Shown: piece by piece, positions 4,164 to 57,828 of the stretch
Layout of the letters: every line of letters begins with the position of its first letter
Numbering within the stretch: the stretch's first letter is position 1
NCBI GenBank assembly: GCA_964360975.1
Contig: CAYHYY010000001.1
Coordinates: forward strand, 959-64,958
DNA length: 64,000 nt
Source of the DNA: an uncultured Candidatus Saccharibacteria bacterium
GTDB taxonomy: Bacteria > Patescibacteriota > Minisyncoccia > Phycocordibacterales > Phycocordibacteraceae
Direction: 5' to 3'
The notes under the pieces: generated by a model
Seen by the model: only the letters and a program-made list of their open reading frames with translations
The model's database searches: none
Told to the model about the DNA's origin: nothing
Translations under genes and position numbers: made by a program

Positions 4164-5270
4164 ATGCGTATTCTCATTGCAACGGGCCTCTATCCTCCGG
4201 AGATTGGGGGACCAGCAACGTATTCAGCGCACCTCAAGAGGAGTCTGCCCGCGCATGGCATCGAAGTGGTTATCTTGCCGTTTAGCCGAGTTCGCCAATA
4301 TTGGAAAGTAGTTCGTCATCTCGTGTACTTCTACCTTGCCTTCAAGGAAGGAAAACGGACAGACCTTATATATGCTCAAGATCCTGTATCGGTCGGTGTG
4401 CCAGCGCTGTGTGCCGCGTTTTTATTACGGAAGCCTTATATGCTCAAGATTGTCGGCGATTACGCATGGGAACAGGCATCGCAGCGTTTCGGCTACGCGG
4501 GTACCCCCGATGCTTTCCAGGATGCTGAAATTCATATCATTGCAAAGATCTTCAGGACATTGGAACGTTTTGTTGCCAGGCAAGCGCACGTGGTCGTCGT
4601 TCCATCAAAGTATCTTGGCGGCATCGTGCGCCTTTGGGGTGTCCCCGAAGAGAAAATTGCGGTTATAAAAAATGGTATCGAGAGTTTCCAAGATACTGGT
4701 TCAAAGAGCGTCATTCGTGGATTATTTAAATTTCATGGAAAACTTATCATTTCGGTCGGCCGACTCGTTCCGTGGAAGGGATTTGATCTCTTAATTAGAA
4801 TTCTTCCCGCTATAAAAAAAAATTATCCTGATACAAAACTGCTCATTATTGGGTCGGGGCCTCTGATGGATGTTCTCGAAAAGAAATCTGTACAGATGGG
4901 GCTCATGAATGATGTCGTGTTTACCGGTGCACTGGAGCGGGACATCCTCATTCGCTATATTCGAGCATCAGATGTGTTTGCGTTGAATACGTCATATGAA
5001 GGACTTTCACATCAAATTCTTGAGGTGATGGCAGTCGGTGTTCCGGTCGTGACGACCCGCGTCGGTGGTAATCCAGAAGTTATTACGCACGGCGTTGATG
5101 GGTATCTCTTAAAGCACAATGACGCGAAGGGGTTTAGAGAAACTATCATGAAGCTGCTTGGTGATAGCGGTTTACGAACCCGTACGGTGGCAAACGCAAA
5201 GCGAAAAATCACGCAATTTTCTAATGAACGCATGGTCGCAGAAACGGCAGCACTGCTAAAAACAATATGA
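4164..5270 (+). CDS. Glycosyltransferase family 4
   Basis: MRILIATGLYPPEIGGPATY N-terminus and NTSYEGLSHQILEVMAVGVPVV motif. The start is taken at ATG 4164, directly after the upstream stop. Confidence 0.75.
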   Translation: MRILIATGLYPPEIGGPATYSAHLKRSLPAHGIEVVILPFSRVRQYWKVVRHLVYFYLAFKEGKRTDLIYAQDPVSVGVPALCAAFLLRKPYMLKIVGDYAWEQASQRFGYAGTPDAFQDAEIHIIAKIFRTLERFVARQAHVVVVPSKYLGGIVRLWGVPEEKIAVIKNGIESFQDTGSKSVIRGLFKFHGKLIISVGRLVPWKGFDLLIRILPAIKKNYPDTKLLIIGSGPLMDVLEKKSVQMGLMNDVVFTGALERDILIRYIRASDVFALNTSYEGLSHQILEVMAVGVPVVTTRVGGNPEVITHGVDGYLLKHNDAKGFRETIMKLLGDSGLRTRTVANAKRKITQFSNERMVAETAALLKTI

Positions 5271-24555: not shown

Positions 24556-25544
24556 GCGTGATCACTTTTCTCTATAATGACATACAGGCTCGTAGCGTGT
24601 CTGCCACCCGTTACGTAGAGGTACGCGTACAAAAGAACTGTGGGAATAAAGAAGAGTCCGTAAAGCTTTGTAAGTGACAGCGCACGAATAACGCGATTTC
24701 GCATAGAAACGCTTCTCTTCACGGGCTTTCCTGATACTACTCTCGGAGCAGTCGCGCCGTCACTCTTGCCAGTCAATTTTTTCGACAACCCAAAGCTCAA
24801 CCACCCGGAGGTCCATTCCGAGAAGCGCATGAGGAGTCGTGAGAAGTAGCCGGGGGCTCCGGTCATATGTCGCATACGGCGGATGCGAAACCCTCGAGCT
24901 TCAAAGAAATTTCTAATTGCAGAATCACTCCATCGCGTTAGATGTTCCGGCGGGTTGTCGCCGTTAAAGAAACCACTCCACCTACCGCGCCATGGCGTAG
25001 AGATTACCAATAGGCCTCCGGGATTTAAGAGCTGGTGCAACTTCGGAATGACGTCGAAGCCATCCAAGTGTTCCAGAATTTCAAACATCGTGATAACGTC
25101 GAACTTCTTTTCAGGAAACTTTGCGACAAACTCATCCACTGACAGCGGATGGACATCAGTGAGTCCCCAAAAATCCTTGGCCGTTTGAATTGCCTCGGTG
25201 TCAAAGTCGCAACCCGAAACGGTGTAGCCCGCTTTTTCAGCACCGGCCAAAAATCTTCCTGCGCCCATGCCGAGATCAAGTAACGTGCCGCCCGCGTTCG
25301 GGCGATGCCGCAAGAAATGTTTCTGCATTGCAAAAAGCGGTTGGGAAAGCGGGTCATGGTTTCGCATCACCGACTCCTTGTTGTCGACTTCGTAAAAAGT
25401 ATTTCCAGGGTTATGGAATGGCCACCAAAATTGAAGATCGCACGCACCGCACTCATACAGCGTCGAAGCATCGAGCGTCTGTCGTTTCGTGAGTGACGTA
25501 GAGCCGCACGCTACACAAGTTCGAGGAACTGAAGTCGGCTCCAT
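24552..25544 (-). CDS. Class I SAM-dependent methyltransferase with an N-terminal Zn-ribbon and a C-terminal TM helix (paralog of 17287..18240)
   Basis: CVACGS..CGACDL, LLDLGMGAGRFL, and a hydrophobic C-terminus. Confidence 0.6.
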   Translation of the reverse strand: MEPTSVPRTCVACGSTSLTKRQTLDASTLYECGACDLQFWWPFHNPGNTFYEVDNKESVMRNHDPLSQPLFAMQKHFLRHRPNAGGTLLDLGMGAGRFLAGAEKAGYTVSGCDFDTEAIQTAKDFWGLTDVHPLSVDEFVAKFPEKKFDVITMFEILEHLDGFDVIPKLHQLLNPGGLLVISTPWRGRWSGFFNGDNPPEHLTRWSDSAIRNFFEARGFRIRRMRHMTGAPGYFSRLLMRFSEWTSGWLSFGLSKKLTGKSDGATAPRVVSGKPVKRSVSMRNRVIRALSLTKLYGLFFIPTVLLYAYLYVTGGRHATSLYVIIEKSDHA

Positions 25545-25671
25545 GAGTATTCATCCTATGATACGCGCTAGAATACTGTATGCAATCAAATATTGCGTGC
25601 GGGGACGCGTGATCTTTGGTCAGCGTAACCTTGAGAAGCGAGTCCTGGTACGATACACTAGAAAGCTCACA

Positions 25672-27342
25672 ATGAAGAAAAAGCTAGCTGTTAAGCCAAA
25701 AAAACACCCTCTTCGTAGGACCAGCGTTCGCGCGAGGGCATTGAATTCGAAGGGAAAGTCAGCGTACGTCTCGGCGCCTGAAAGCTTCATGCCATCACAC
25801 GCGCTTTTTAAGCGTGGTGAATTTGATTTCAAAAATCTATTCATTTTTGAGATGGCGAACAATCATCAAGGAGATGTTCAGCACGGACTCAAGATAATTG
25901 ACGAATTGGGAAAAATTTCGAAAAAGATGGGAATCCGTGGCGCGATAAAGTTTCAATTGCGCGACCTCGACACATTCATTCATCCCGCACACAAGAAAGG
26001 ATCAAACAATAAACACGTTCCCCGATTTCTCTCTACGAGACTCTCACAAGCCGAATTCCAGAAACTCGTCGATGCAGCGCGCGATGCGGGTCTCCTCATT
26101 ATGGCGACGCCGTTCGATGAGAAGTCGGTTGATCTTCTAGAAGCGCTGCATATAGACATAGTTAAAGTCGCGAGCTGCTCGGCTCTCGATTGGCCGCTTT
26201 TGGAGCGCATTGCCGAAACGAACCGCCCTGTCATTGTATCGACCGCTGGAGTAGCGCTTCACGATGTCGATCGCGTCGTGGCGTTCTTCCAACACCGCGG
26301 CGTTCCGTTCGCGCTTATGCACTGCGTGGCGCTGTATCCGACGCCGAGCGAGAAACTTAATTTGGGACGGATCGAAATGTTTGCAAAGCGGTACCCTGAT
26401 GTACCGGTCGGCTACTCGACGCACGAAGATCCCAAGGATACGAATGCAGTGCGTGTTGCATACGCAAAAGGTGCGCGCATTTTTGAGAAACACGTAGCGC
26501 TTCCCACTGACCAATATTCTGTGAACAAGTATTCAGCGACGCCAGTTCAACTCATCAAATGGATAGAGGCGTGGCAAGAAACTGCCGCAATGCTTTCCGG
26601 AGACTCCACCATGACCGCTGGACCTGAAGAAACACAATCGTTGAGAGAGCTCATGCGCGGCGTGTTCGTGAAAAAGGCGGTAAAGAAGGGAGGAGCGCTC
26701 TCAAGGAACAACATTTACTTTGCGATGCCAGCATCTTCCGGGCAACTCGTGAGCGGCGAGTGGAAAGAGAGCATGGTTGCCGATCGCTCCTATAAAGCTC
26801 ACGAGGCTGTCTCGGCAGACGTCATCAATTCTTACCGCGTATCGAAAAATGAGCTTGTCGCGTCCTTTGTTCGCAGAATTAAGGGAATGCTTGCCGAGGC
26901 GAACATCGCTGTCGGTGCTGCTCCTGAGGTTGAATTGTCACACCACTATGGCCGTGAGCGATTTCTTGAATATGGCACGGCGATCATTAGTTGTATTAAC
27001 AGAGAGTATTGCAAAAAAGTACTCCTCCAGCTTCCGAACCAGTATCACCCAGCGCACTATCACAAAAAGAAAGAAGAGTCGTTCCAGGTGCTTTCAGGAG
27101 AGCTTGTGGTGGAGTTGGAAAAGAAACGAAAAATTCTTTATCCCGGAGACGTGTTGGTAGTGCCGCGCGGCACGTGGCACAGCTTCTGGACCGACACGGG
27201 TGCTATCTTTGAAGAAGTATCAACAACGCATTTCAATGACGATTCATTTTATGCAGATAAGACGATCAATAAAGTTCCACGAGACGAACGAAAGACGCAG
27301 CTGGTAAATTGGGGACGACATCAGTTTGATAACGAGCAATAG
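25672..27342 (+). CDS. NeuB-family nonulosonic-acid synthase (PEP aldolase TIM barrel) fused to a C-terminal cupin
   Basis: FIFEMANNHQGDVQHG (IAEIGxNHNGD-like) and an HEDPKD metal site. The C-terminus carries the cupin motif YHKKKEESFQVLSGELVVELEKKRKILYPGDVLVVPRGTWH. The start is uncertain: ATG 25672 was chosen, and the track ORF begins at 25489, overlapping the divergent neighbour. Confidence 0.65.
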   Translation: MKKKLAVKPKKHPLRRTSVRARALNSKGKSAYVSAPESFMPSHALFKRGEFDFKNLFIFEMANNHQGDVQHGLKIIDELGKISKKMGIRGAIKFQLRDLDTFIHPAHKKGSNNKHVPRFLSTRLSQAEFQKLVDAARDAGLLIMATPFDEKSVDLLEALHIDIVKVASCSALDWPLLERIAETNRPVIVSTAGVALHDVDRVVAFFQHRGVPFALMHCVALYPTPSEKLNLGRIEMFAKRYPDVPVGYSTHEDPKDTNAVRVAYAKGARIFEKHVALPTDQYSVNKYSATPVQLIKWIEAWQETAAMLSGDSTMTAGPEETQSLRELMRGVFVKKAVKKGGALSRNNIYFAMPASSGQLVSGEWKESMVADRSYKAHEAVSADVINSYRVSKNELVASFVRRIKGMLAEANIAVGAAPEVELSHHYGRERFLEYGTAIISCINREYCKKVLLQLPNQYHPAHYHKKKEESFQVLSGELVVELEKKRKILYPGDVLVVPRGTWHSFWTDTGAIFEEVSTTHFNDDSFYADKTINKVPRDERKTQLVNWGRHQFDNEQ

Positions 27343-27348
27343 TTATTT

Positions 27349-28071
27349 ATGAACATCTATGCGGTGATCCTTGCCCGCGGTGGTTCAAAAGGGGTACCAC
27401 GGAAAAATGTCCTGCCGCTGAACGGAAAGCCGTTGATTGCGTGGACTATTGAGGCCGCAAAAAAAGTGCCGACGATTTCTAGGGTCGTGGTGAACACCGA
27501 TGATGATGAGATTGCTTCCGTCGCTGAATCGTACGGCGCGGAGATTTACATGCGCCCGAGTGAACTTGCAGGGGATGACACTCCCGATCTTCCGGTATTT
27601 GAGCAGTACCTAACGCGCCTCAAAGCGCAAGGCGAGTTGCCGGACATGATTGTCGATCTTCGTCCCACCGCGCCACTCCGCAGCGCGAAACGCATTGCTG
27701 AAGGGATTGAACTTTTATCCCGGATTGGCATTCTGAAAGCTGACTCGGTTCGAGCTGTTTCAAAAGCCGCGAAACATCCTTACAAGATGTGGAATCTCAA
27801 GGGTGAACACATCACCCCGTTTCTTTCGAAGTCCGTTACGGGGCTCAATGAGCCGTACAACGCTCCGCGACAAGTATTGCCACAGGTATATCAGAATAAT
27901 GGGTGCATGAATGCATTCTGGCCGGCAACAGTACTTGAGAAGCATTCGATGTCAGGCAACACTATCGCAGGTTTCGTTATGGATGATTGGGAGTCCGTTA
28001 ACATTGATACAAAGCTCGACTTCAAACTTGCCGAACTACTTATGAAAGAACACGAGAAGTTGTTTGCCTAA
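27349..28071 (+). CDS. CMP-nonulosonic-acid cytidylyltransferase (NeuA/PseF/LegF family)
   Basis: AVILARGGSKGVPRKNVLPLNGKPLI signature. Confidence 0.75.
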   Translation: MNIYAVILARGGSKGVPRKNVLPLNGKPLIAWTIEAAKKVPTISRVVVNTDDDEIASVAESYGAEIYMRPSELAGDDTPDLPVFEQYLTRLKAQGELPDMIVDLRPTAPLRSAKRIAEGIELLSRIGILKADSVRAVSKAAKHPYKMWNLKGEHITPFLSKSVTGLNEPYNAPRQVLPQVYQNNGCMNAFWPATVLEKHSMSGNTIAGFVMDDWESVNIDTKLDFKLAELLMKEHEKLFA

Positions 28072-28099
28072 TACGGTAGCGTGCGCGATACTGACCGCC

Positions 28100-29158
28100 A
28101 TGTCTGTTAAAGTAAAAATCATCGGAGCTGGCTCTATTGGAAATCATCTCGCGCAAGCGTCTCGGCGCATTGGGTGGGACGTTACCGTAGTGGATGCGAA
28201 CCGCGATGCGCTGAAGCGCATGAAGGACGATATCTATCCAACTAGATATGGAATGTGGGATTCACGCATTAAGCTCGCGCACATGAGTGAAGAACCGAAG
28301 GGTGGCTTCGACATCGTTATGATCGGGACGCCTCCCGACAGTCATCTCAAACTCGCGCTCGCCGCACTCCGCGAAAAACCGCGTGTGCTACAAATAGAGA
28401 AGCCGCTCTGCCCACCATGTGATCCGCTCCTCTCCCGATTCCTCGCAGCAGCAAAAAAGTCGCGAACGAAAATCATTGTTGGCTACGATCACACCGTAGG
28501 CGCGTCCATTGAATACGTCGCGTCGCATATACAGATGCTTGGGACTCCGCTTACCTTAGATGTCGAATTCCGTGAACACTGGCAAGGCATTTTCAAAGCG
28601 CACCCTTGGCTTTCTGGTCCATCAGATTCGTATTTGGGATACTGGAAGCGAGGCGGAGGAGCATCCGGGGAACACTCGCACGCACTCCATCTCTATCAAT
28701 ACCTAGCAAAAGAGATGGGGTTGGGGACCTGGAAGAAGGTCGTACCGCATCTGACGGTAGAGAAAGCAGCAGGAGGAGTGCAATACGATTCGGTGGCATC
28801 ATTCGGATTCGAGATGAGCAAGGGGCGATACGGACGTGTTATTCAAGATGTCATAACACTTCCAACGCGAAAGTGGGCGCGAGCGCAGGGATCCGATGGA
28901 TTCATCGAGTGGATCTGTGGTGGTTCGCCGAAAGGGGACATTGTCCGCCATGCGCTGAAGGGTAAAAAGCTAGAGGAGAAAGTGTTTGAGAAGACGCGCC
29001 CTGACGATTTCTTGAGAGAAGTAAAACACATTGATAAAATCCTGAAAGGCAAGCAAAGCGCCGCGACTTCCCCTATGTCTCTAGAGAGCGCGGTCGCGGT
29101 GATTCGTGTACTAGAGAAAACGTGGAAGAGTAAATCAAAGGTCGCGATTTCTTTGTAA
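28100..29158 (+). CDS. Gfo/Idh/MocA-family NAD(P) oxidoreductase
   Basis: VKIIGAGSIGNHLAQA Rossmann motif and family-typical length. The start was taken at ATG 28100. Confidence 0.6.
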   Translation: MSVKVKIIGAGSIGNHLAQASRRIGWDVTVVDANRDALKRMKDDIYPTRYGMWDSRIKLAHMSEEPKGGFDIVMIGTPPDSHLKLALAALREKPRVLQIEKPLCPPCDPLLSRFLAAAKKSRTKIIVGYDHTVGASIEYVASHIQMLGTPLTLDVEFREHWQGIFKAHPWLSGPSDSYLGYWKRGGGASGEHSHALHLYQYLAKEMGLGTWKKVVPHLTVEKAAGGVQYDSVASFGFEMSKGRYGRVIQDVITLPTRKWARAQGSDGFIEWICGGSPKGDIVRHALKGKKLEEKVFEKTRPDDFLREVKHIDKILKGKQSAATSPMSLESAVAVIRVLEKTWKSKSKVAISL

Positions 29159-29328
29159 AACAAGCCGCCCGTTCGACAGTCCCCCGGACTATCGAACACC
29201 CCGCCCCAAAGGGGACGGGGTATTGAGCGGGCGGCACCGGGGTGTTTTTCTAGGTAGAGAATCGGCCACCGCCGATACTGGTTTACCCTCAATCCCCGCG
29301 GCAAGCCGCGGGGATTGAAACCTAGTAA
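29159..29328. repeat. Copy A of a ~170 bp GC-rich multi-hairpin intergenic element that begins directly after a stop codon
   Basis: About 95% identical to 57303..57475. Hairpins: ttcgacagtcc/ggactatcgaa, caccccgcccc/ggggacggggtg, and ccccgcgg-caag-ccgcgggg. An enclosing stem gccgcccg/cgggcggc is followed by a T5 run. Confidence 0.7.
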
Positions 29329-29532
29329 ACTACCCCGCTACTACCATATATGGTAGTGATGCGGCCTCCGCCGAGATTCTCTTGACGGTACTCCGTCATA
29401 GAGAATCCAAGTGTGGTCGCCCTGCGCGAGCCACCGGGCGCGCGTGGCGACGATTCACCCCCGTGCCAGAGGCACGGGGCACTCTCGTCGTCCAGCCAGT
29501 AGAAATCTCAAGCCGGTGCGCTTGAGATTTGC
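29329..29532. other. Hairpin-dense non-coding stretch of at least five strong stem-loops between convergent genes. Possibly a structured RNA.
   Basis: Stem-loops ctacca-tata-tggtag, gattctct[tgacgg-tact-ccgtca]agagaatc, gtcgcc..ggcgac, ccccgtgcc-aga-ggcacgggg, and aaatctcaag-ccggtgcg-cttgagattt. No ORF. Confidence 0.35.
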
Positions 29533-30890
29533 ATTATCGTGTCGGCAATGTGCGAGCCCGCAGTTCCGAAATTAGGCAAATACGAATTCACCAGCGTTAC
29601 TCTCTTTTCAGCATTTTGTTCTGGGTCGTTCATGTAGCTCCCGATGATTGACCTGAACGTATCTTTGTCGTATGCAACATCAACGCCACCTGTTTCGAGA
29701 GCCTTTCGAATAAAAGAGAACGTGAAGAGTAACCTGATTACTGCGTCGTCGTTTTCTGCATGATCCAAACCAGACAGTCCCGTGTAAATCATCGGCTTGT
29801 TCAAAACTGCCGCGTCGAGCGCAAGTGAGGAGAAAATACTCAAATTGACGTCAGCAAAGTTGAGAAGATTCGCGACGTGATCTTTGTTTGGGAGTGTGTC
29901 TGCGGATTCTAGCAAGAGATTCGGGAACTCTTGCTGGAGAGATATATACGCCTCGGGAATACGTTGCGTTGGTCCAAACCGAACGAGGACCATGCTCTCA
30001 GGGATTCTCATCGCTTTGATGTCTTCAAGGAGCAGCTTCGTGACGTCCAACTGATGTGGGTGCCAATTGTCCGTTCCGACGAAATACGTGATGAGCTTCT
30101 TTTGAGGATCAGCGCCGATTGATTTGAAAAGTTCTTCACGGGTAGCGGATGGAGAAAACTTTGCGTAGGTATCGTATCGCTGACATCCCTCGACATGTAT
30201 CAGTTCTGCATTGATCGACTTAAGATCAACGAGTTCCTGCTTCATCAGGTCATTCCAGACAAAGATGTGTGCCTGCCGCGGCACCGAGTACAGGCGATTT
30301 TCAAAATAGTTCCATGGCAAGTCGACGACGAATACGGGAACTCGATGTTTTCTACCAACGGCAAGCCACGCGATATCGTGTGCATCATGAGAAAGTGTAC
30401 CCACCACAATACCGTCAGGAGAGTGCTCGCGAAGTAGTCCTTCGAACGATGGCTCTGAGATTGCATACTCCTCGAGGTAGTCAAATAGATTCACCAAAGT
30501 ACTTCGAAAAGGCCTGAGAAGCATGCGCAAGAATTTCATGACTCGATCCTTCGGGGGGAGAGAGCGAATCAGTGCGTTTGCGGTCGTGCTCATTTCAACC
30601 AATTTCGCGTGTTCGTGCTTTGCGGTATCAAGTGCCAATGCATGTTCACGGACCCGGCTCGTTTTTACTAATGACGCGGGCAGTGCGGGCAGTGCTTGGT
30701 GGACTACATTTTCGCCAGAAAACTCCTTCGTGAAGTCTTCATCATCCACAAATGGAGAAAGGATCACGATCTTCGACTTTGTTTTCAGAGACGAAAAAAT
30801 GTCTGAACGAAGAATGGCGTTCGTGCGGTACGCGGTCGGAATAATGAAAAAAAAGGTCTTCATGAAGCGGCGCGATTGTACCACGCTCAT
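29508..30890 (-). CDS. TagF/TagB-like GT-B fold protein, paralog 1 of 5 (putative polymer glycosyl- or glycerophospho-transferase)
   Basis: Shares with 33205, 36414, 48570 and 58828 an N-terminal ILxI..P motif, HSPDGIVVGT, WNYF, VEGCQRYD (GYPxxD-like), and C-terminal SSLALDAAVLNKPMIYTG. Confidence 0.45.
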   Translation of the reverse strand: MSVVQSRRFMKTFFFIIPTAYRTNAILRSDIFSSLKTKSKIVILSPFVDDEDFTKEFSGENVVHQALPALPASLVKTSRVREHALALDTAKHEHAKLVEMSTTANALIRSLPPKDRVMKFLRMLLRPFRSTLVNLFDYLEEYAISEPSFEGLLREHSPDGIVVGTLSHDAHDIAWLAVGRKHRVPVFVVDLPWNYFENRLYSVPRQAHIFVWNDLMKQELVDLKSINAELIHVEGCQRYDTYAKFSPSATREELFKSIGADPQKKLITYFVGTDNWHPHQLDVTKLLLEDIKAMRIPESMVLVRFGPTQRIPEAYISLQQEFPNLLLESADTLPNKDHVANLLNFADVNLSIFSSLALDAAVLNKPMIYTGLSGLDHAENDDAVIRLLFTFSFIRKALETGGVDVAYDKDTFRSIIGSYMNDPEQNAEKRVTLVNSYLPNFGTAGSHIADTIMQISSAPA

Positions 30891-44204: not shown

Positions 44205-44737
44205 AGGTCACTCCACTTCGATTAGCTGGACTCGCTTCCATAACTCCAGAAGTTCACGGTGATTCGCGCGGATATTTTATGGAAGTGTTTAACAAAGACA
44301 CTTTTACGGACGCCGGTTTACCATTCGACGTTGTCGAGCATAATCAATCGCACTCACAAAAGAATGTTCTCCGTGGACTTCACTTCCAGTATGATCCACC
44401 GCTGAGTAAAATAGTGCGCGTTGTACGAGGGAAAGCTTTTTTTGTCGCCGTCGATACCAGAAAGGAGTCTCAAACGGTGGGTGGGTGGGAGGCGCGAGAG
44501 CTGTCACCTGAAACAAAAGAATTGTTTTTTATTCCTGCTGGGTTTGCTACAGGATTTTGCGCTTTGGAGGACGACACCGATATTGAGTATTACTTTAACA
44601 ATCACTACAATCCAAGAGGGGAAACAAACATCGCGTGGAATGATCACCTCATAAACATTTCGTGGCCTATAGAAAATCCGATTCTTTCAGAACGAGATGC
44701 AGGAGCGCAATCTCTTAAAGATTGGCTCGCTCGATAA
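44201..44737 (+). CDS. NDP-4-keto-6-deoxyhexose 3,5-epimerase (RmlC/RfbC cupin family)
   Basis: GDSRGYFMEVF (GDERGFFxExF), NQSHSQKNVLRGLHFQ, and the AGFATGFCALED region. The start at 44201 overlaps the upstream stop (ATGA). Confidence 0.8.
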   Translation: MKVTPLRLAGLASITPEVHGDSRGYFMEVFNKDTFTDAGLPFDVVEHNQSHSQKNVLRGLHFQYDPPLSKIVRVVRGKAFFVAVDTRKESQTVGGWEARELSPETKELFFIPAGFATGFCALEDDTDIEYYFNNHYNPRGETNIAWNDHLINISWPIENPILSERDAGAQSLKDWLAR

Positions 44738-44749
44738 ATTTCGACGCAG

Positions 44750-54492: not shown

Positions 54493-54686
54493 TTTTATTT
54501 TTTTATAAAAAAGTTTTCATATATGTTATCCACATGTACTGGTTGATTGTGTGGTGAGATGTTTTATGCGCTACATAATGATGAGAGCTTGTATGGCGAC
54601 GCAGGAATAATGTTTGCACAACGCATTGTTCCAGGTCAGGCGTAGAGCGCATGTACAGGTCGTTATTTGTCCTAAAGCAAACTCAT

Positions 54687-54761
54687 ATGGCAAAAAAGCG
54701 AAAGGCGAAAGCGGCAAAAAAGACGAAGACAAAGAAGCGAACTTCGAAGCGCCGCAAATAG
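54687..54761 (+). CDS. Candidate 24-aa lysine/arginine-rich peptide (MAKKRKAKAAKKTKTKKRTSKRRK). Speculative.
   Basis: A short ORF followed 10 nt later by a strong bidirectional terminator. No clear Shine-Dalgarno sequence. Confidence 0.2.
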   Translation: MAKKRKAKAAKKTKTKKRTSKRRK

Positions 54762-54771
54762 TTTCCGTAAG

Positions 54772-54808
54772 AAAAAAAGCTTCGATACATTCGAAGCTTT
54801 TTTCTTTT
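54772..54808. terminator. Bidirectional rho-independent terminator (A-run, agcttcga-tacat-tcgaagct, T-run)
   Basis: An 8 bp GC-containing stem flanked by A7 upstream and T7 downstream. Confidence 0.5.
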
Positions 54809-54833
54809 TATATCAGGCATCGCTCATGCAAAT

Positions 54834-57302
54834 GTGCTAGGATGCCTTACCATGCTTGGCTTCGGGAAGCTGTTTACATCGGCAAGCCCTCTCTTAGGGA
54901 AAGCACAAGAGGCAGTCCTCGCCGTTAATACTTTTGAGGCTGCCATGAAGGCGCGGTCACTTGATGAAATTAAGGCCTTAACGAGCGACTTTAAGGATCG
55001 CGTAGCCAAAGGAGAGCATCTTGACGACCTACTCCCTGAGGCGTTCGCGGCTGTGCGCGAAGCATCGCTTCGAACCCTTGGGGAACGACATTATGACGTG
55101 CAAATAATCGGTGGGTATGTACTCCATAACCACGCCATTGCCGAGATGCGCACTGGTGAAGGTAAAACGTTGGTCGCAACGCTCCCTGCTTATTTGAATG
55201 CACTCACCGAAAGAGGTGTCCACATTATTACGGTGAACGATTATCTCGCGAGACGCGATGCGGTATGGATGGGACAGATTTATGCCGCGCTCGGACTGAG
55301 CGTCGGCGTTATCAATCATGACGCATCGTATGCGTACGATCCGTCGCATTCAGAAAAAGATGAAGCGCGAGACACGCTCGGATCGTTTAAAGTCATGCAC
55401 GAATTTCTTCGTCCCGTGTCCAGAAAAGAATCATACGCTGCTGACATTACGTACGGCACGAATAACGAATTTGGATTTGACTACTTGCGAGATAATCTTG
55501 AATACGACGCAGTTAATCTCAGGCAACGCGATCACTACTACGCTATTGTCGATGAAGTAGACTCGATACTTATTGACGAGGCGCGCACCCCATTAATTAT
55601 TTCGGGTCCTGCAAAGGATCCTGAAGCGTTGTATCAGACGTTTGCAGCTATCGCGAAATCGCTCAAAGAAACTGAGGACTATACCGTTGATGAAAAGATG
55701 CGCGCCGTCATTATTACCGACTCTGGGGTAGAGAAGGCGGAGAAAGCACTTGGCATAGAAAATTTGTACGCTGAAGGCGGTGCAAAGATGGCGCACCACT
55801 TAGAGTCCGCAGTAAAGGCGAAGGCGCTTTTTATGCTCGACAAAGACTACGTTGTAAAGGATGGCCAGGTAGTCATCGTTGATGAATTTACGGGACGTTT
55901 GCAGCCGGGGCGTCGGTGGTCCGAAGGTTTGCATCAAGCCATTGAAGCGAAGGAAGGGGTAACCATACAAAAAGAGAGTCAGACTTACGCGTCGGTGACG
56001 TTCCAAAATTACTTCCGTATGTACGAGAAGATTGCAGGCATGACGGGAACGGGGGAGACCTCAGAGGAGGAATTCAGGACTGTGTATGGCTTGGATGTAG
56101 TCGCCATTCCAACGCATCGACCGACGGCGAGAGACGACCAACATGATCTTATATTCCAAAATGAATCGGGAAAATTCAGAGCGATAGCGAAAGCGGTTGC
56201 TGAGCGTCACGCGAAAGGGCAGCCGGTCTTAATTGGCACGACGTCGATTGAAGCAAATGAGCGTCTCGCGGCCGTTTTACGCGTCGCAGGCATTCCGCAC
56301 GAGGTCATGAATGCGAAGAATCATGAGCGAGAAGGGGAAATTATTGCGCAAGCCGGACGAAAAGGAGCAGTGACGGTTGCGACGAACATGGCGGGGCGAG
56401 GTGTGGACGTAAAACTCGGCGGCAATCCTGCGACCAAAGAAGCGTACGAAGCGGTGAAGAATCTGGGGGGGTTGTTTGTGGTGGGTACTGAGCGTCACGA
56501 TGCTCGGAGGATCGATAATCAGCTTCGCGGTCGCGCGGGTCGTCAGGGTGACCCCGGCGTTACACAATTCTTCGTATCGCTCGAAGATCGATTGATGCGC
56601 GTTTTTGCATCGGATATGGTGAAGAAAATGATGGGAAAACTGGGTATCCCAGAAGATGAACCCATTCAGAGCGGCATGGTTTCTCGTTCTTTGGAGTCTG
56701 CGCAGGAAAAGATTGAAGGAGTGAATTTTGATTCTCGGAAGCACGTTTTAGGATTTGATGATGTGTTGAATCACCAGCGCGCGGTGATATATAAGAAGCG
56801 GCATGCGGTTCTCACTGGTGGACCAGATGAAGTCATTGCTATGGCGCGCGAACACATGGATGCTGCGGGAGCGGACGGCAGCGTTCTCGACGCCAAGGAG
56901 CAAGCATTAGGTCGAGATGCATTCGTGATTGCGCTCAGGCGTCTTCTTTTGCAGGCATATGATATGTTCTGGATTGAGCATCTCGAGACGATGGATCACT
57001 TGAGAGGGTCGGTAAATCTCCGGTCGTATGGCGGCAGAGATCCATTCATTGAATATCGTCGTGAAGGATTACGTCTCTTCAGAAACCTCGAAGAGTCACT
57101 CTCAGTCTTTGTCGCAGAGTCCGTTCCCCGTGTCGTCCCCGCATCGTCCAATCCGCAAAAAACGGTGCGCCTCGTCGCACCTGTTGCCCAAAAACTTGGT
57201 CGCAATGATCACGTGAAGATAACGAACGGCACCGAGACACGCGAAATGAAGTACAAGAAGGCGGAAGCTCTGCTATCCCAAGGTTGGAAAATCGTGGAGT
57301 AA
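54834..57302 (+). CDS. secA: Preprotein translocase ATPase SecA
   Basis: MRTGEGKTLVATLPAYLNAL (Walker A), ITVNDYLARRD, HQAIEAKEGV, TNMAGRGVDVKLGG. The track start at 54834 is GTG; an internal ATG at 54852 is an alternative. Confidence 0.9.
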   Translation: MLGCLTMLGFGKLFTSASPLLGKAQEAVLAVNTFEAAMKARSLDEIKALTSDFKDRVAKGEHLDDLLPEAFAAVREASLRTLGERHYDVQIIGGYVLHNHAIAEMRTGEGKTLVATLPAYLNALTERGVHIITVNDYLARRDAVWMGQIYAALGLSVGVINHDASYAYDPSHSEKDEARDTLGSFKVMHEFLRPVSRKESYAADITYGTNNEFGFDYLRDNLEYDAVNLRQRDHYYAIVDEVDSILIDEARTPLIISGPAKDPEALYQTFAAIAKSLKETEDYTVDEKMRAVIITDSGVEKAEKALGIENLYAEGGAKMAHHLESAVKAKALFMLDKDYVVKDGQVVIVDEFTGRLQPGRRWSEGLHQAIEAKEGVTIQKESQTYASVTFQNYFRMYEKIAGMTGTGETSEEEFRTVYGLDVVAIPTHRPTARDDQHDLIFQNESGKFRAIAKAVAERHAKGQPVLIGTTSIEANERLAAVLRVAGIPHEVMNAKNHEREGEIIAQAGRKGAVTVATNMAGRGVDVKLGGNPATKEAYEAVKNLGGLFVVGTERHDARRIDNQLRGRAGRQGDPGVTQFFVSLEDRLMRVFASDMVKKMMGKLGIPEDEPIQSGMVSRSLESAQEKIEGVNFDSRKHVLGFDDVLNHQRAVIYKKRHAVLTGGPDEVIAMAREHMDAAGADGSVLDAKEQALGRDAFVIALRRLLLQAYDMFWIEHLETMDHLRGSVNLRSYGGRDPFIEYRREGLRLFRNLEESLSVFVAESVPRVVPASSNPQKTVRLVAPVAQKLGRNDHVKITNGTETREMKYKKAEALLSQGWKIVE

Positions 57303-57475
57303 AACAAGCCGCCCGTTCGACAGTCCCCCGGACTATCGAACACCCCGCCCCAAAGGGGACGGGGTGTTGAGCGGGCGGCACCGGGGTGTTTTTCTAGGCA
57401 GAGAATCGGCCGCCGCCGATACTGGTTTACCCTCAATGCCCCGCGGCATAGCCGCGGGGCATTGAAACCTAGTAA
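57303..57475. repeat. Copy B of the ~170 bp multi-hairpin element, directly after the secA stop codon
   Basis: About 95% identical to 29159..29328. The terminal hairpin carries compensatory changes on both arms (gccccgcgg-cata-gccgcggggc versus ccccgcgg-caag-ccgcgggg). Confidence 0.7.
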
Positions 57476-57489
57476 TATACAATAGATAT

Positions 57490-57828
57490 ATGTTTATAGA
57501 ACTTATTGCGCGTTTCCTTGGAACTATTTTTGCGGTTCTCCTTGCGGCCTACATAGTCCCCGGGTTTACCGTCGATAGTTTTTATACGGCAGCAATTGTT
57601 GCGGTAATCCTTGGCGTATTGAATGTGACCATTAAACCGATCCTGATCCTTTTGACACTTCCACTCACCATACTTACCATGGGGCTGTTCACTTTTATTA
57701 TCAACGCGCTTCTGATTCTTATTGTTTCTAGTTTCGTAGAAGGGTTTAGTGTCGCAGGGTTCGTCCCAGCGCTAATCGGTGGCGCGGTCATTGCACTCAT
57801 TGGCTGGGCATTGCACCGGCTCACCTAA
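57490..57828 (+). CDS. Small four-TM membrane protein (YvlD/DUF360, holin-4-like family)
   Basis: 112 aa, four hydrophobic helices, family-like GFTVDSFYTAAIVAVILGVLNVTIKP. Confidence 0.5.
   Translation: MFIELIARFLGTIFAVLLAAYIVPGFTVDSFYTAAIVAVILGVLNVTIKPILILLTLPLTILTMGLFTFIINALLILIVSSFVEGFSVAGFVPALIGGAVIALIGWALHRLT

What the first reader, a model, noticed from the sequence alone, without database searches (positions are those of the whole stretch)
57303..57475. Second copy of the multi-hairpin element at the 3' end of secA
This is listed separately so it can be located. The element shows the same immediate post-stop placement as copy A (stop TAA at 57300..57302, element from 57303). Placement right after the stops of two unrelated genes suggests either targeted insertion at gene ends or a role as a modular terminator or 3'-UTR stabiliser.
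Basis: seen in the sequence. Interest (0 to 1): 0.5.

Follow-up and report, generated by a model that had tools for sequence, protein, structure and literature searches.

The report
Mobile multi-hairpin repeat after secA stop
A 173-base, hairpin-packed piece of non-coding DNA has been inserted exactly after the stop codon of secA in a groundwater Patescibacteria genome; it is one copy of a small family of mosaic, REP/MITE-like repeats, which is ordinary in kind but apparently undescribed in this streamlined lineage.

Summary
Window 57303-57475 (+) is a 173-nt, GC-rich (0.61 against 0.50), very strongly folding element. It is 97% identical to 29159-29328, and both copies start on the base after a TAA stop.

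It is an insertion. Five secA relatives (75-80% aa identity) have a 15-nt secA-to-next-gene spacer where the window has 187 nt. Removing the element and one TAA restores a collinear site.

It is not an assembly artefact. Independent Hainich groundwater assemblies reproduce every junction, and several break inside the repeat.

At least four or five loci carry it. All four known left flanks end in GTAA, and the element itself ends in GTAA (GTGA in one copy).

Copies differ by the presence or absence of whole hairpins, by a compensated base-pair indel, by a flipped loop and by a nested insertion. The same modules recur in other orders and orientations.

I found no terminal inverted repeats, no GTAG or CGTC tag on its hairpins, no Rfam family and no transposase in the window.

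Best reading: a non-autonomous, mosaic palindromic repeat (REP/BIME/PATE-like) that targets GTAA, so it is tolerated at ...G-TAA stops. Mobilisation by an IS200/IS605-type enzyme is only inferred. It is not a canonical sense-strand terminator. One hairpin weakly resembles a CRISPR repeat. Interest is modest.

The parts
54852..57302 (+). secA gene (816 aa from the ATG at 54852). Its stop codon TAA is at 57300-57302.
   Evidence: Pfam SecA domains. An identical protein is on record in ENA and NCBI.
57299..57302 (+). Left-flank GTAA, made of the last base of the final Glu codon plus the stop TAA. It is the putative target, or one copy of a duplicated tetranucleotide.
   Evidence: All four distinct left flanks end in GTAA: window A and B, L006 and L011.
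57303..57475 (+). Element copy B: 173 nt, non-coding, GC 0.61.
   Evidence: 97% identical to 29159-29328. Absent from five secA relatives. Fold z-scores between -8.3 and -9.95.
57308..57379 (+). Domain I, a three-way junction. P1 is 57308-57315 paired with 57372-57379 (GCCGCCCG/CGGGCGGC). It encloses hairpin H1 (57316-57340) and hairpin H2 (57341-57366).
   Evidence: MFE and centroid structures and coordinates. H1 is missing as a unit in the L011 variant.
57382..57395 (+). CGGGGTGTTTTTCT. It is the imperfect inverted-repeat partner (79%) of the left terminus AGTAAAACAAGCCG (57298-57311) and holds the only T-run on the sense strand.
   Evidence: Inverted-repeat scan. The DNA fold pairs AAAACA with TGTTTT. 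The terminator scan gives only a weak hit here.
57405..57420 (+). M2, a small hairpin ATCGGC-CGCC-GCCGAT. The loop is CACC in the other copies.
57420..57474 (+). Domain II, a long interrupted hairpin. TACTGGTT pairs with AACC-T-AGTA around the perfect 15-bp hairpin M3 (57433-57465).
   Evidence: Consensus fold and DNA fold. Compared with copy B, copy A lacks one G-C pair on both arms. The L006 and L021 copies carry the loop inverted, ATA to TAT.
57422..57468 (+). CRISPR-repeat-like stretch: GTTTACCCTCAAT, then a GC hairpin, then ATTGAAAC.
   Evidence: Sub-threshold match to Rfam CRISPR-DR18 over the full model: 20.4 bits here and 27.5 bits for copy A at 29278-29321, against a gathering score of 50.
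57472..57475 (+). Right-terminal GTAA of the element, a direct repeat of the left-flank GTAA.
   Evidence: It reads GTGA in the L006 copy.
57476..57489 (+). The native 14-nt spacer TATACAATAGATAT before the next gene. It is collinear with the 15-nt spacer of relatives.
   Evidence: Alignment with L002-L005.
57490..57828 (+). Downstream co-directional gene for a 112-aa, 4-TMS membrane protein (PF04020), followed by obg at 57829-58797.
   Evidence: Pfam. The same gene order occurs in relatives.
29159..29328 (+). Element copy A (170 nt), directly after TAA 29156-29158 of a Gfo/Idh/MocA-type oxidoreductase gene (28100-29158).
   Evidence: Reproduced in the independent assemblies L014 and L020.
29329..29507 (+). 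Further hairpin modules that follow copy A: palindrome 29338-29358, and hairpins 29373-29407, 29416-29451 and 29459-29479. The same modules occur in inverted orientation, and duplicated, in L006 1-190, and nested inside the L006 copy.
29499..29530 (+). GTAG-tagged hairpin (GTAG-AAATCTCAAGC-CGGTGC-GCTTGAGATTT). Its 3' arm encodes the last codons and the stop of the convergent minus-strand gene (29508-30890).

Best explanation
Window 57303-57475 is one copy of a lineage-restricted family of non-autonomous, mosaic palindromic repeats in a groundwater Patescibacteria (Paceibacteria-like) genome. The family is comparable in kind to REP/BIME, NIME, BOX and IS200/IS605-derived PATE elements.

Shown: the element is built of separable hairpin modules. 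These are domain I, a three-way junction; a small hairpin; and domain II, a long interrupted hairpin. It was inserted between the TAA stop of secA and the first base of the native 14-15-nt spacer.

Shown: every known copy is preceded by GTAA and itself ends in GTAA or GTGA.

Inferred: the element integrates next to, or duplicates, GTAA. In a genome with almost no intergenic space, the copies that survive are those at ...G-TAA stop codons or inside earlier copies. There the stop codon and the downstream spacer stay intact.

Inferred with less confidence: the element has no terminal inverted repeats but has sub-terminal hairpins at both ends and an invariant flanking tetranucleotide. The most likely mobilising activity is therefore a trans-acting HUH/Y1 single-strand transposase of the IS200/IS605/RAYT type, acting on hairpins in single-stranded DNA. 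Recombination and template switching between shared modules would then create the mosaics.

Inferred: relatives show secA and the next genes 15 nt apart, and the element has no promoter and no canonical sense-strand terminator. It is therefore probably transcribed within the secA-PF04020-obg mRNA. There its very stable hairpins would act, as a by-product, as a barrier to 3'-exonuclease or as a processing site, as REP does.
For: There are two 97% identical copies after the stops of two unrelated genes.

Insertion: secA relatives P0002, P0003, P0004 and P0008 (two contigs) all have a 15-nt spacer, against 187 nt here. The alignment shows GAG-TAA-[173 nt]-TATACAATAG against GAG-TGA-TATACAATAG.

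A multi-copy repeat: independent assemblies break inside it (L001, L010, L012, L014). Extra loci have new flanks: L006, L011-left and L021-right.

Invariant GTAA: it appears on four different left flanks, and in L006 it belongs to another repeat module rather than to a gene end.

Modularity: H1 is absent in L011. An 89-nt block of other modules is nested in the L006 copy between duplicated 20-nt linkers. The same modules are inverted and tandemly duplicated in L006 1-190 and follow copy A in the window.

Hairpins are maintained. Copy A and copy B differ by a G-C pair removed on both arms of M3. The closing pair of H2 is C-G in B, T-A in L011 and C.A in A and L006.

Folding is extreme on both strands, as DNA as well as RNA. 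GC and MFE/nt are outliers among the window's gaps.

There is no Rfam family and no tRNA. No ORF in the window matches a transposase, integrase or recombinase family, which fits a non-autonomous element.

IS608 properties used for comparison come from PMC3201880: sub-terminal imperfect palindromes; insertion 3' of a fixed tetranucleotide that stays in the left flank; and a right cleavage site inside the element, 10 nt 3' of the hairpin foot. Here GTAA ends 10 nt 3' of the M3 foot on the + strand. On the - strand, TTAC ends 9 nt 3' of the P1 foot.
Against: No transposase of any kind was found, and the rest of the genome could not be searched.

Only four or five copies are known, all from one groundwater site. 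Target preference, orientation bias and covariation therefore cannot be tested statistically: there are 0 double-sided changes under the RNAalifold consensus.

The GTAA...GTAA arrangement fits a 2-4-bp target-site duplication by a DDE transposase equally well. The guide/cleavage-site pairing rule of IS608 could not be evaluated.

L011 and L021 are low-coverage contigs and are probably graph chimeras through the repeat, so the flanks they provide are less secure.

Exact-pattern scans found no relatives in GTDB species representatives or viral contigs, and BLAST found none in phages or plasmids. Spread beyond this population is therefore unproven.

With two copies in the window, their placement at stop codons, rather than at other intergenic GTAA sites, is only weakly non-random: roughly 0.015-0.09 under a crude neutral-site count.
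Confidence: 0.72

Rival explanations
1. It is a classical MITE mobilised by a DDE transposase (IS630/Tc1-like with a TA duplication, or IS5/IS1031/Harbinger-like with a TAA or 4-bp duplication). The GTAA...GTAA at the two ends would then be a target-site duplication.
For: Direct repeats of 4-5 nt flank the copies: AGTAA/AGTAA in B, GTAA/GTAA in A, GTAA/GTGA in L006. The size and non-coding nature fit. An imperfect 14-nt inverted repeat (79%) bounds domain I, and CTAGG...CCTAG bounds domain II.
Against: The two true termini are not inverted repeats of each other: AACAAGCCGCC against the reverse complement of the right end, CTAGGTTTCAATG. The duplicated sequence is identical in every copy, which is unusual for a TSD unless the target is strictly specific. 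GTAA is not the YTAR target of IS5. No DDE transposase is present in the window.
Confidence: 0.15
2. It is primarily a functional cis-acting RNA module, kept at gene 3' ends because it terminates transcription, stabilises the upstream mRNA or directs intercistronic processing. Its repetition would then reflect recruitment rather than selfish spread.
For: It lies immediately after the stop in the sense orientation at both window sites. The RNA fold is extremely stable. Hairpin-preserving differences exist between copies. The antisense strand reads as a strong hairpin followed by TTGTTTT, which in copy A faces a convergent gene. REPs are reported mainly downstream of ORFs and are thought to act as RNA elements (PMC3733652).
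Against: Relatives function without it and have only 15 nt at this site. There is no canonical sense-strand terminator, although classic terminators exist in the lineage. The structure is equally good on both strands and as DNA. In L006 the same modules pile up in an 800-nt non-coding mosaic in both orientations, not at a gene end. Whole hairpins come and go between copies.
Confidence: 0.15
3. Domain II is a solitary CRISPR-repeat-like unit, derived from or mimicking a 37-nt, Cas6-type repeat that ends in AUUGAAAC. It would be bound or cut by a Cas6/Cas5d-type RNase, making the element a dispersed CRISPR-repeat mimic with a regulatory, anti-CRISPR-like or processing role.
For: There is an end-to-end match to Rfam CRISPR-DR18: 27.5 bits with E = 0.0028-0.013 for copy A, and 20.4 bits for copy B. 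Nearly all non-loop positions are identical (UCAA-UCCCCGC...GGGGAUUGAAAC), and the unit starts with GTTT and ends with GAAAC. Solitary repeat units that mimic CRISPR repeats are known from phages (PMC10651486).
Against: The score is well below the gathering threshold of 50, and the E-value would be above 1 for the whole window. The hairpin is 10 nt longer than the model's. ATTGA is part of the palindrome itself, so the motif may be incidental. ATTGAAAC is not enriched in the window. There is no array, no cas gene in the window and no match in viral contigs. CRISPR-Cas is uncommon in this phylum (my own knowledge).
Confidence: 0.06
4. It is an assembly artefact: a repeat collapsed or mis-joined by the assembler, so that the two post-stop placements are not real.
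For: Several assemblies break inside the element. Two low-coverage contigs, L011 and L021, join one copy's left side to another copy's right side.
Against: L020 spans the whole copy A gap identically in an independent assembly. Separate assemblies reproduce both copy B junctions (L001 on the left; L010 and L012 on the right). The secA-PF04020-obg order across copy B is the conserved order in all relatives. The copies carry private variants that continue into their own flanks.
Confidence: 0.02

Closest known systems
REP / BIME (repetitive extragenic palindromes and bacterial interspersed mosaic elements; RAYT-mobilised)
   Same: Both are short GC-rich imperfect palindromes combined with linkers into mosaics, in both orientations. 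Both lie mainly downstream of ORFs, between co-directional or convergent genes, are species-specific, and have no coding capacity (PMC2817692, PMC3733652, compared).
   Different: The element's own hairpins carry no unpaired GTAG or CGTC tag next to the stem; only a neighbouring hairpin at 29499-29530 does. The conserved unit is a 170-173-nt composite that includes a three-way junction, not a 20-40-nt REP or REP pair. The copy number seen is about 5, not above 100. No RAYT was found.
IS200/IS605-derived non-autonomous elements (PATEs), with IS608 as the mechanistic model
   Same: There are no terminal inverted repeats, and there are sub-terminal hairpins at both ends. An invariant tetranucleotide sits immediately 5' of the element: GTAA on the + strand, which is TTAC on the - strand and so identical to the IS608 target. 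The same motif lies inside the right end, 9-10 nt 3' of a hairpin foot (PMC3201880).
   Different: The left hairpin starts 5 nt from the left boundary on the + strand (7 nt on the - strand), against 19 nt in IS608. Left and right motifs are identical here, whereas IS608 has TTAC and TCAA. Extra internal hairpins are present. No TnpA or TnpB gene and no omega-RNA/HEARO match were found.
BOX elements of Streptococcus pneumoniae, NIME/Correia elements of Neisseria, ERIC, and bcr1 of the Bacillus cereus group (from my own knowledge)
   Same: These are modular, highly structured intergenic repeats of 100-300 nt that are co-transcribed with neighbouring genes. Module number varies between copies, and some insert at a fixed short target.
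   Different: There is no sequence similarity. Correia and ERIC elements have clear terminal inverted repeats. BOX has a fixed A-B-C module order. None of them is reported from Patescibacteria.
CRISPR repeats of the 37-nt, AUUGAAAC-ending class (Rfam CRISPR-DR18/DR52) and solitary repeat units (Racr)
   Same: Domain II reads GTTTACCCTCAAT, then a GC hairpin, then ATTGAAAC, and it aligns end-to-end with the DR18 consensus. It occurs singly, like solitary repeat units (PMC10651486).
   Different: The score is below threshold and the stem is longer. There is no array, no spacers and no cas genes nearby. It is embedded in a larger chromosomal repeat rather than in a phage.

Membership tests
REP / BIME | Imperfect palindromes of 20-40 bp | tested here: met
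   H1 is 25 nt, H2 is 26 nt, M2 is 16 nt and M3 is 30-33 nt.
REP / BIME | An unpaired GTAG or CGTC tag at one end of the palindrome (PMC3733652) | tested here: not met
   None of H1, H2, M2 or M3 has GTAG or CGTC next to its stem on either strand. Only the neighbouring hairpin at 29499-29530 has GTAG at its 5' foot.
REP / BIME | High copy number, and a cognate RAYT gene flanked by the repeats (PMC2817692) | not testable with these tools
   Only 64 kb and a few short contigs of the genome are available. At least 4-5 loci were seen. No Y1_Tnp-type ORF is present in the window.
REP / BIME | Mosaic combinations of palindromes and linkers in alternating orientations, located downstream of ORFs | tested here: met
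   The modules are re-used, inverted, duplicated and nested in L006, and also follow copy A.
MITE (DDE-mobilised) | Terminal inverted repeats at the two ends of the element | tested here: not met
   The left end AACAAGCCGCC and the reverse complement of the right end, CTAGGTTTCAATG, are unrelated. Only internal, imperfect inverted repeats bound the sub-domains.
MITE (DDE-mobilised) | Target-site duplication flanking each copy | tested here: inconclusive
   GTAA or AGTAA occurs at both ends. It is the same in every copy, so a duplication cannot be told apart from a fixed target plus a fixed terminal motif.
MITE (DDE-mobilised) | Small size (under about 500 bp), non-coding, multi-copy, absent from orthologous sites | tested here: met
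   The copies are 170-173 nt. A search with concatenated translations of the open reading frames found no protein homologue. At least 4-5 loci are known. Five relatives have the empty site.
IS200/IS605-type (PATE) | Sub-terminal hairpins at both ends and no terminal inverted repeats | tested here: met
   The P1 junction starts 5 nt from the left boundary, and the M3 hairpin ends 10 nt from the right boundary.
IS200/IS605-type (PATE) | Insertion 3' of a fixed tetra- or pentanucleotide retained in the left flank, with no gain or loss of target DNA | tested here: inconclusive
   GTAA precedes all four known left ends. The site is collinear with relatives if the right GTAA is counted as part of the element. 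This is equally compatible with a duplication.
IS200/IS605-type (PATE) | A cognate Y1 (HUH) TnpA, and guide/cleavage-site pairing | not testable with these tools
   There is no TnpA in the window. The rest of the genome is unavailable, and the pairing rules are partly non-canonical (PMC3201880, PMC5934647).
Intrinsic (Rho-independent) terminator | A stable GC-rich hairpin followed within about 2 nt by a U-run on the transcribed strand | tested here: not met
   On the sense strand, the T5 run begins 9 nt after the P1 stem, and M3 is followed by AAACCUAGUAA. The feature is met only on the antisense strand, as P1 plus TTGTTTT.
Integron attC site | Inverse core RYYYAAC at the 5' end and a complementary core GTTRRRY at the 3' end of one imperfect palindrome | tested here: not met
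   The left end GTAAAAC matches 5 of 7 positions. No complementary GTTRRRY is present at the right end, and the element is not a single palindrome (read).
CRISPR repeat (Rfam CRISPR-DR18) | A score at or above the family gathering threshold, and occurrence in a regularly spaced array | tested here: not met
   The scores are 27.5 and 20.4 bits against a threshold of 50. There is no array in the window.
Any Rfam RNA family | A covariance-model match at gathering score | tested here: not met
   There are 0 matches in the whole window, and only sub-threshold hits around the copies and in L006.

The most novel reading that the evidence does not exclude
The element could represent an undescribed class of TIR-less, hairpin-guided mobile mosaics in Candidate Phyla Radiation bacteria. 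This class would home to GTAA, and so to ...G-TAA stop codons, by single-strand transposition. One of its modules would be a CRISPR-repeat mimic ending in AUUGAAAC that a Cas6-type RNase processes. The insertion would then convert a tight operon junction (secA to the next gene) into a processed, hairpin-capped mRNA boundary.
Probability: 0.07. Interest if true: 0.7.

Novelty: new variant of a known kind. Interest (0 to 1): 0.35.

Why it matters
Patescibacteria have genomes of about 1 Mb with almost no intergenic space, and they are usually described as poor in repeats and mobile DNA. Here a family of structured, mosaic repeats is recent: copies are 97% identical, while the closest secA relative found shares only 80% amino-acid identity. 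This shows that selfish or semi-domesticated palindromic elements also operate in this lineage. It also shows where they can survive, namely exactly at stop codons and inside one another.

In practice, the repeat breaks metagenome assemblies and produces chimeric contigs in this population (L011, L021), which matters for MAG quality.

If the GTAA specificity and a cognate enzyme were confirmed, the element would add a compact, sequence-addressed insertion system from an unexplored phylum. If the element alters secA-operon mRNA stability or processing, it would be a natural example of operon remodelling by a repeat. None of this overturns current understanding, so interest is modest.

Tried and rejected
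These searches and ideas led nowhere.

- Rfam at gathering score on the whole window gave nothing. Permissive scans of both copies and of L006 gave only sub-threshold noise, apart from the CRISPR-DR18 lead.
- A tRNA/tmRNA scan found nothing.
- Exact-pattern scans: a 34-mer and a 20-mer linker against GTDB species representatives gave 0 hits and one chance 20-nt hit (L007).
- Six viral-contig scans with different modules gave only chance hits in coding DNA (L008, L009, L017-L019).
- The single metagenome scan gave L006 only. It missed L001, which contains the pattern, so that collection is incomplete for this site.
- BLAST (distant mode) of the element against phage and plasmid collections found no match.
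- I searched 5.8 billion predicted proteins with the concatenated open frames of the repeat, to catch copies mis-called as genes. No hit.
- Empty-site test for copy A: homologues of the oxidoreductase are at most 64% identical, so they are not informative. L015 and L016 diverge from the window at 28943, upstream of the element, and lead to an unidentifiable ORF.
- Covariation: four copies carry too few substitutions.
- Integron attC, TnpB/IscB omega-RNA, retron, DGR variable/template repeat and sRNA-gene ideas were considered. I dropped them because core sites were absent, there were no Rfam hits, no adjacent RT or nuclease genes were present, and the differences are not adenine-specific.
- Strand assignment from G.U wobble positions was ambiguous, at about 3 against 2.
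- Literature searches for MITE or REP elements in Patescibacteria/CPR returned nothing relevant. One search returned only papers about mites.
Full report

The ORF that ends at 57302 is secA. It matches SecA_DEAD, SecA_PP_bind, P-loop_SecA and SecA_SW, and its likely start is the ATG at 54852. The stop codon TAA is at 57300-57302.

From 57303 the sequence is AACAAGCCGCCCG..., and it ends in ...CATTGAAACCTAGTAA at 57475. A 77-nt probe from its 5' part matches the window twice, at 57303 and at 29159 with one mismatch. None is expected in shuffles.

The repeat finder and blastn give 96.6-97% identity over about 177 nt. The pairwise alignment shows that identity begins at GTAA|AACAAG and stops after CCTAGTAA.

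Copy A (29159-29328) follows TAA 29156-29158 of a Gfo/Idh/MocA-type oxidoreductase gene.

The element folds far better than chance. As RNA the z-scores are -8.9 (+ strand) and -8.3 (- strand). As DNA they are -9.0 and -9.95. Among all intergenic gaps of the window, only the two that hold the repeat have GC near 0.6 and about -0.56 kcal/mol per nt (sliding-window check).

**2. Where the window comes from, and whether the element is an insertion**

The SecA protein is identical to one on record from a Hainich groundwater metagenome (ENA ERZ1292617) and from an NCBI MAG. Its relatives are annotated as Patescibacteria, Paceibacteria or Kaiserbacteria.

In five relatives with 75-80% SecA identity, the next gene starts 15 nt after the secA stop. 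That gene encodes a PF04020 four-TMS membrane protein and is followed by obg. The relatives are P0002, P0003 (L002), P0004 (L003) and P0008 (L004 and L005). In the window the gap is 187 nt.

The alignment reads as follows:
- window: GAG-TAA-[173 nt]-TATACAATAGATAT-ATG
- L003: GAG-TGA-TATACAATAGACTTC-ATG

The element is therefore a clean insertion between the stop codon and the native spacer. Equivalently, it is an insertion with a 3-5-nt duplication of (AG)TAA.

**3. It is not an assembly artefact, and it is multi-copy**

Independent assemblies from other Hainich samples reproduce every junction:
- L001 has secA plus 29 nt of the element, and then the contig ends.
- L010 and L012 begin inside the element and run into the downstream gene.
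- L014 begins inside copy A and runs into the convergent gene.
- L020 spans the whole 349-nt copy A gap identically.

Contigs that end inside the element are what a dispersed repeat produces.

Further loci exist:
- L006, found by the metagenome scan, carries a third copy at 525-788. It sits within an approximately 820-nt non-coding mosaic upstream of a metallo-beta-lactamase-fold gene.
- L011 has a fourth left flank...GATAGTCGGGTAA|AACAAG.
- L021 has a further right flank, GTAA|AACAAGCCGCTCACTAACTA, next to a different minus-strand gene.

L011 and L021 are low-coverage contigs. They join one copy's left half to another copy's right half, so they are probably graph chimeras. Even so, they reveal additional genomic flanks.

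**4. Anatomy** (coordinates; structures)

- Domain I (57308-57379) is an 8-bp stem P1 (GCCGCCCG/CGGGCGGC) that encloses two 11-bp hairpins, H1 and H2.
- The left terminus AGTAAAACAAGCCG is an imperfect inverted repeat of CGGGGTGTTTTTCT at 57382-57395.
- A small hairpin, M2, lies at 57405-57420.
- Domain II (57420-57474) is a long interrupted hairpin. TACTGGTT pairs with AACC-T-AGTA around the perfect 15-bp hairpin M3 (57433-57465).
- The two real ends of the element are not inverted repeats of each other.

**5. How the copies differ**

- Copy A lacks one G-C pair on both arms of M3 relative to copy B. This indel is compensated.
- The H2 closing pair is C-G in B, T-A in L011, and C.A in A and L006.
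- The M3 loop is ATA in B and TAT in L006 and L021, so the palindrome has flipped.
- H1 is missing as a block in L011.
- In L006 an 89-nt block of other modules is nested in domain II, between two copies of the 20-nt linker GATACTGRTTTACYCTCAAT.
- The modules that follow copy A in the window (29329-29507) recur in L006 1-190, inverted and tandemly duplicated.

This is the behaviour of a mosaic of separable palindromic modules. It is not the behaviour of a single conserved RNA gene. With only four usable copies, formal covariation is uninformative.

**6. Target**

All four distinct left flanks end in GTAA: GGAGTAA, TTTGTAA, GGTAGTAA and CGGGTAA. The element's right end is GTAA, or GTGA in L006.

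In L006 the left GTAA belongs to another repeat unit, TCGCTTYGTTTGGTAGTA, which occurs twice there. GTAA is therefore a property of the site, not of gene ends as such.

In the window, 5 of 54 genes end in G-TAA, and two of those five carry the element. Outside the elements there are 27 other GTAA sites (both strands) where an insertion would not interrupt a gene, and none of them is occupied. With two events this is only weakly non-random. The simplest reading is GTAA-directed integration combined with purifying selection in a genome that is almost entirely coding.

**7. Mechanism**

No ORF in the window matches a transposase, integrase or recombinase. The window is a large cell-envelope glycan cluster plus murB, secA and obg. 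The element is therefore non-autonomous.

Three features match the IS200/IS605 'peel and paste' logic described for IS608 (PMC3201880; PMC5934647):
- there are no terminal inverted repeats;
- there are sub-terminal hairpins at both ends;
- a fixed 5' tetranucleotide is present, and the same motif recurs 9-10 nt 3' of a hairpin foot at the other end.

Read on the minus strand, the flanking tetranucleotide is TTAC, the IS608 target itself. The same Y1/HUH superfamily (RAYTs) is thought to mobilise REP and BIME elements (PMC2817692).

I therefore favour single-strand, hairpin-guided mobilisation in trans. This step is inferred, not shown. A DDE-type MITE with a TA, TAA or GTAA duplication remains possible.

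GC skew is positive along the whole window, and both copies share one orientation. This fits strand-biased single-strand insertion, but it means little with two copies.

**8. Function**

Relatives show that secA and the next genes form a tight unit with a 15-nt spacer and no terminator. The element brings no promoter-like site.

It also brings no canonical sense-strand terminator. The T5 run starts 9 nt after P1, and M3 is followed by AAACCUAG. The lineage does use textbook terminators, for example AAAAACGCCCCTCACGGGGCGTTTTTTT upstream of secA in L002.

On the antisense strand, P1 followed by TTGTTTTAC does look like a terminator. This could matter in copy A, which faces a convergent gene.

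The element is thus most likely transcribed inside the secA operon mRNA. Any effect, such as 3'-exonuclease protection or processing, would be REP-like and secondary. I could not test this.

**9. An unexpected resemblance**

A permissive Rfam scan aligns GGTTTACCCTCAAT, the hairpin and ATTGAAAC end-to-end with CRISPR-DR18. The scores are 27.5 bits for copy A (E = 0.003-0.013 for the stretch searched) and 20.4 bits for copy B, against a gathering score of 50.

Outside the longer loop, nearly every position matches the consensus. The unit begins with GTTT and ends with ATTGAAAC, the handle of Cas6-type repeats.

Against this reading:
- ATTGA is part of the palindrome itself;
- the 8-mer is not enriched in the window;
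- there is no array and no cas gene in the window;
- there is no match in viral contigs.

I record this as a low-probability lead. Solitary repeat mimics are known from phages (PMC10651486).

**10. Comparison and novelty**

No sequence relative was found in Rfam, in GTDB species representatives, in viral contigs, or in the phage and plasmid collections. No paper in the library describes MITE- or REP-like repeats in Patescibacteria.

In kind, the element is closest to the REP/BIME and IS200/IS605-derived families. However, it fails the REP tag test and the MITE terminal-inverted-repeat test, and its conserved unit is an unusually elaborate 170-nt composite. I therefore rate it a new variant of a known kind, of modest interest.

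**11. Verdict**

The 'insertion at gene ends' interpretation is supported in the sense of GTAA-directed insertion tolerated at stop codons. The 'modular terminator' interpretation is not supported on the sense strand. The stabiliser role is untested.

Noticed in passing
window 29329-29507: Copy A is followed by about 180 nt of further hairpin modules: palindrome ACTACCATATATGGTAGT, and hairpins at 29373-29407, 29416-29451 and 29459-29479. They belong to the same mosaic system and recur inverted and duplicated in L006.
   Followed up: partly
window 29499-29530: A GTAG-tagged, REP-like hairpin overlaps the 3' end of the convergent minus-strand gene (29508-30890, with a weak Glyphos_transf match). 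Its arm encodes the last seven or so codons and the TGA stop. The repeat may therefore have replaced the original C-terminus.
   Followed up: no
L006 1-822: An approximately 820-nt non-coding mosaic lies upstream of a metallo-beta-lactamase-fold gene. It contains tandem 66-nt units (1-55 and 67-121), a perfect 32-nt palindrome (340-371), two copies of TCGCTTYGTTTGGTAGTA, and the third element copy with a nested insertion.
   Followed up: partly
L021 2294-2317: Here the right flank of an element copy begins with the element's own first 10 nt (AACAAGCCGC) before diverging. This suggests head-to-tail insertion at the terminal GTAA, or a solo remnant. The M3 hairpin in this contig is a hybrid of two copy types.
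   Followed up: partly
L015 and L016 (match window 27717-28943): Two 1872-nt contigs from other samples match the window at 99.9% up to 28943 and then continue into unrelated sequence. This truncates the oxidoreductase to 282 aa and leads to an ORF with no Pfam hit. It is either a structural variant or a chimera.
   Followed up: partly
P0046 (hit): A 665-aa protein on a 3159-nt ENA contig is 100% identical to the N-terminal 74% of this SecA, but it also carries a precomputed HATPase_c domain. It is probably another chimeric contig.
   Followed up: no
window 1-53211 and 58828-62133: Nearly the whole window is one co-directional cell-envelope glycan cluster. It includes many GT1, GT2 and GT4 glycosyltransferases, two asparagine-synthase-like genes, two NeuB-like genes (25489-27342 fused to a cupin; 60438-61610 with SAF), three CTP_transf_3 cytidylyltransferases, three Glyphos_transf-like genes, a Wzy_C-TPR ligase and an ABC exporter. 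This suggests a nonulosonic-acid or teichoic-acid-like surface polymer in a Patescibacterium.
   Followed up: no
L002 2990-3030: The secA gene call in relative P0003 (842 aa) starts upstream of a textbook intrinsic terminator (AAAAACGCCCCTCACGGGGCGTTTTTTT). The true start is probably the next ATG, so the annotated N-terminus is likely wrong.
   Followed up: no
window 4669-5266, 44205-44749, 54493-54851: Three unusually long gaps for this genome (598, 545 and about 340-360 nt; GC 0.39-0.46) have no ORF of 80 aa or more and no Rfam hit. They were not examined further.
   Followed up: no
window 29278-29321 and 57422-57468: There is a sub-threshold but end-to-end match of the M3 module to Rfam CRISPR-DR18, and the module ends in ATTGAAAC.
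   Followed up: partly
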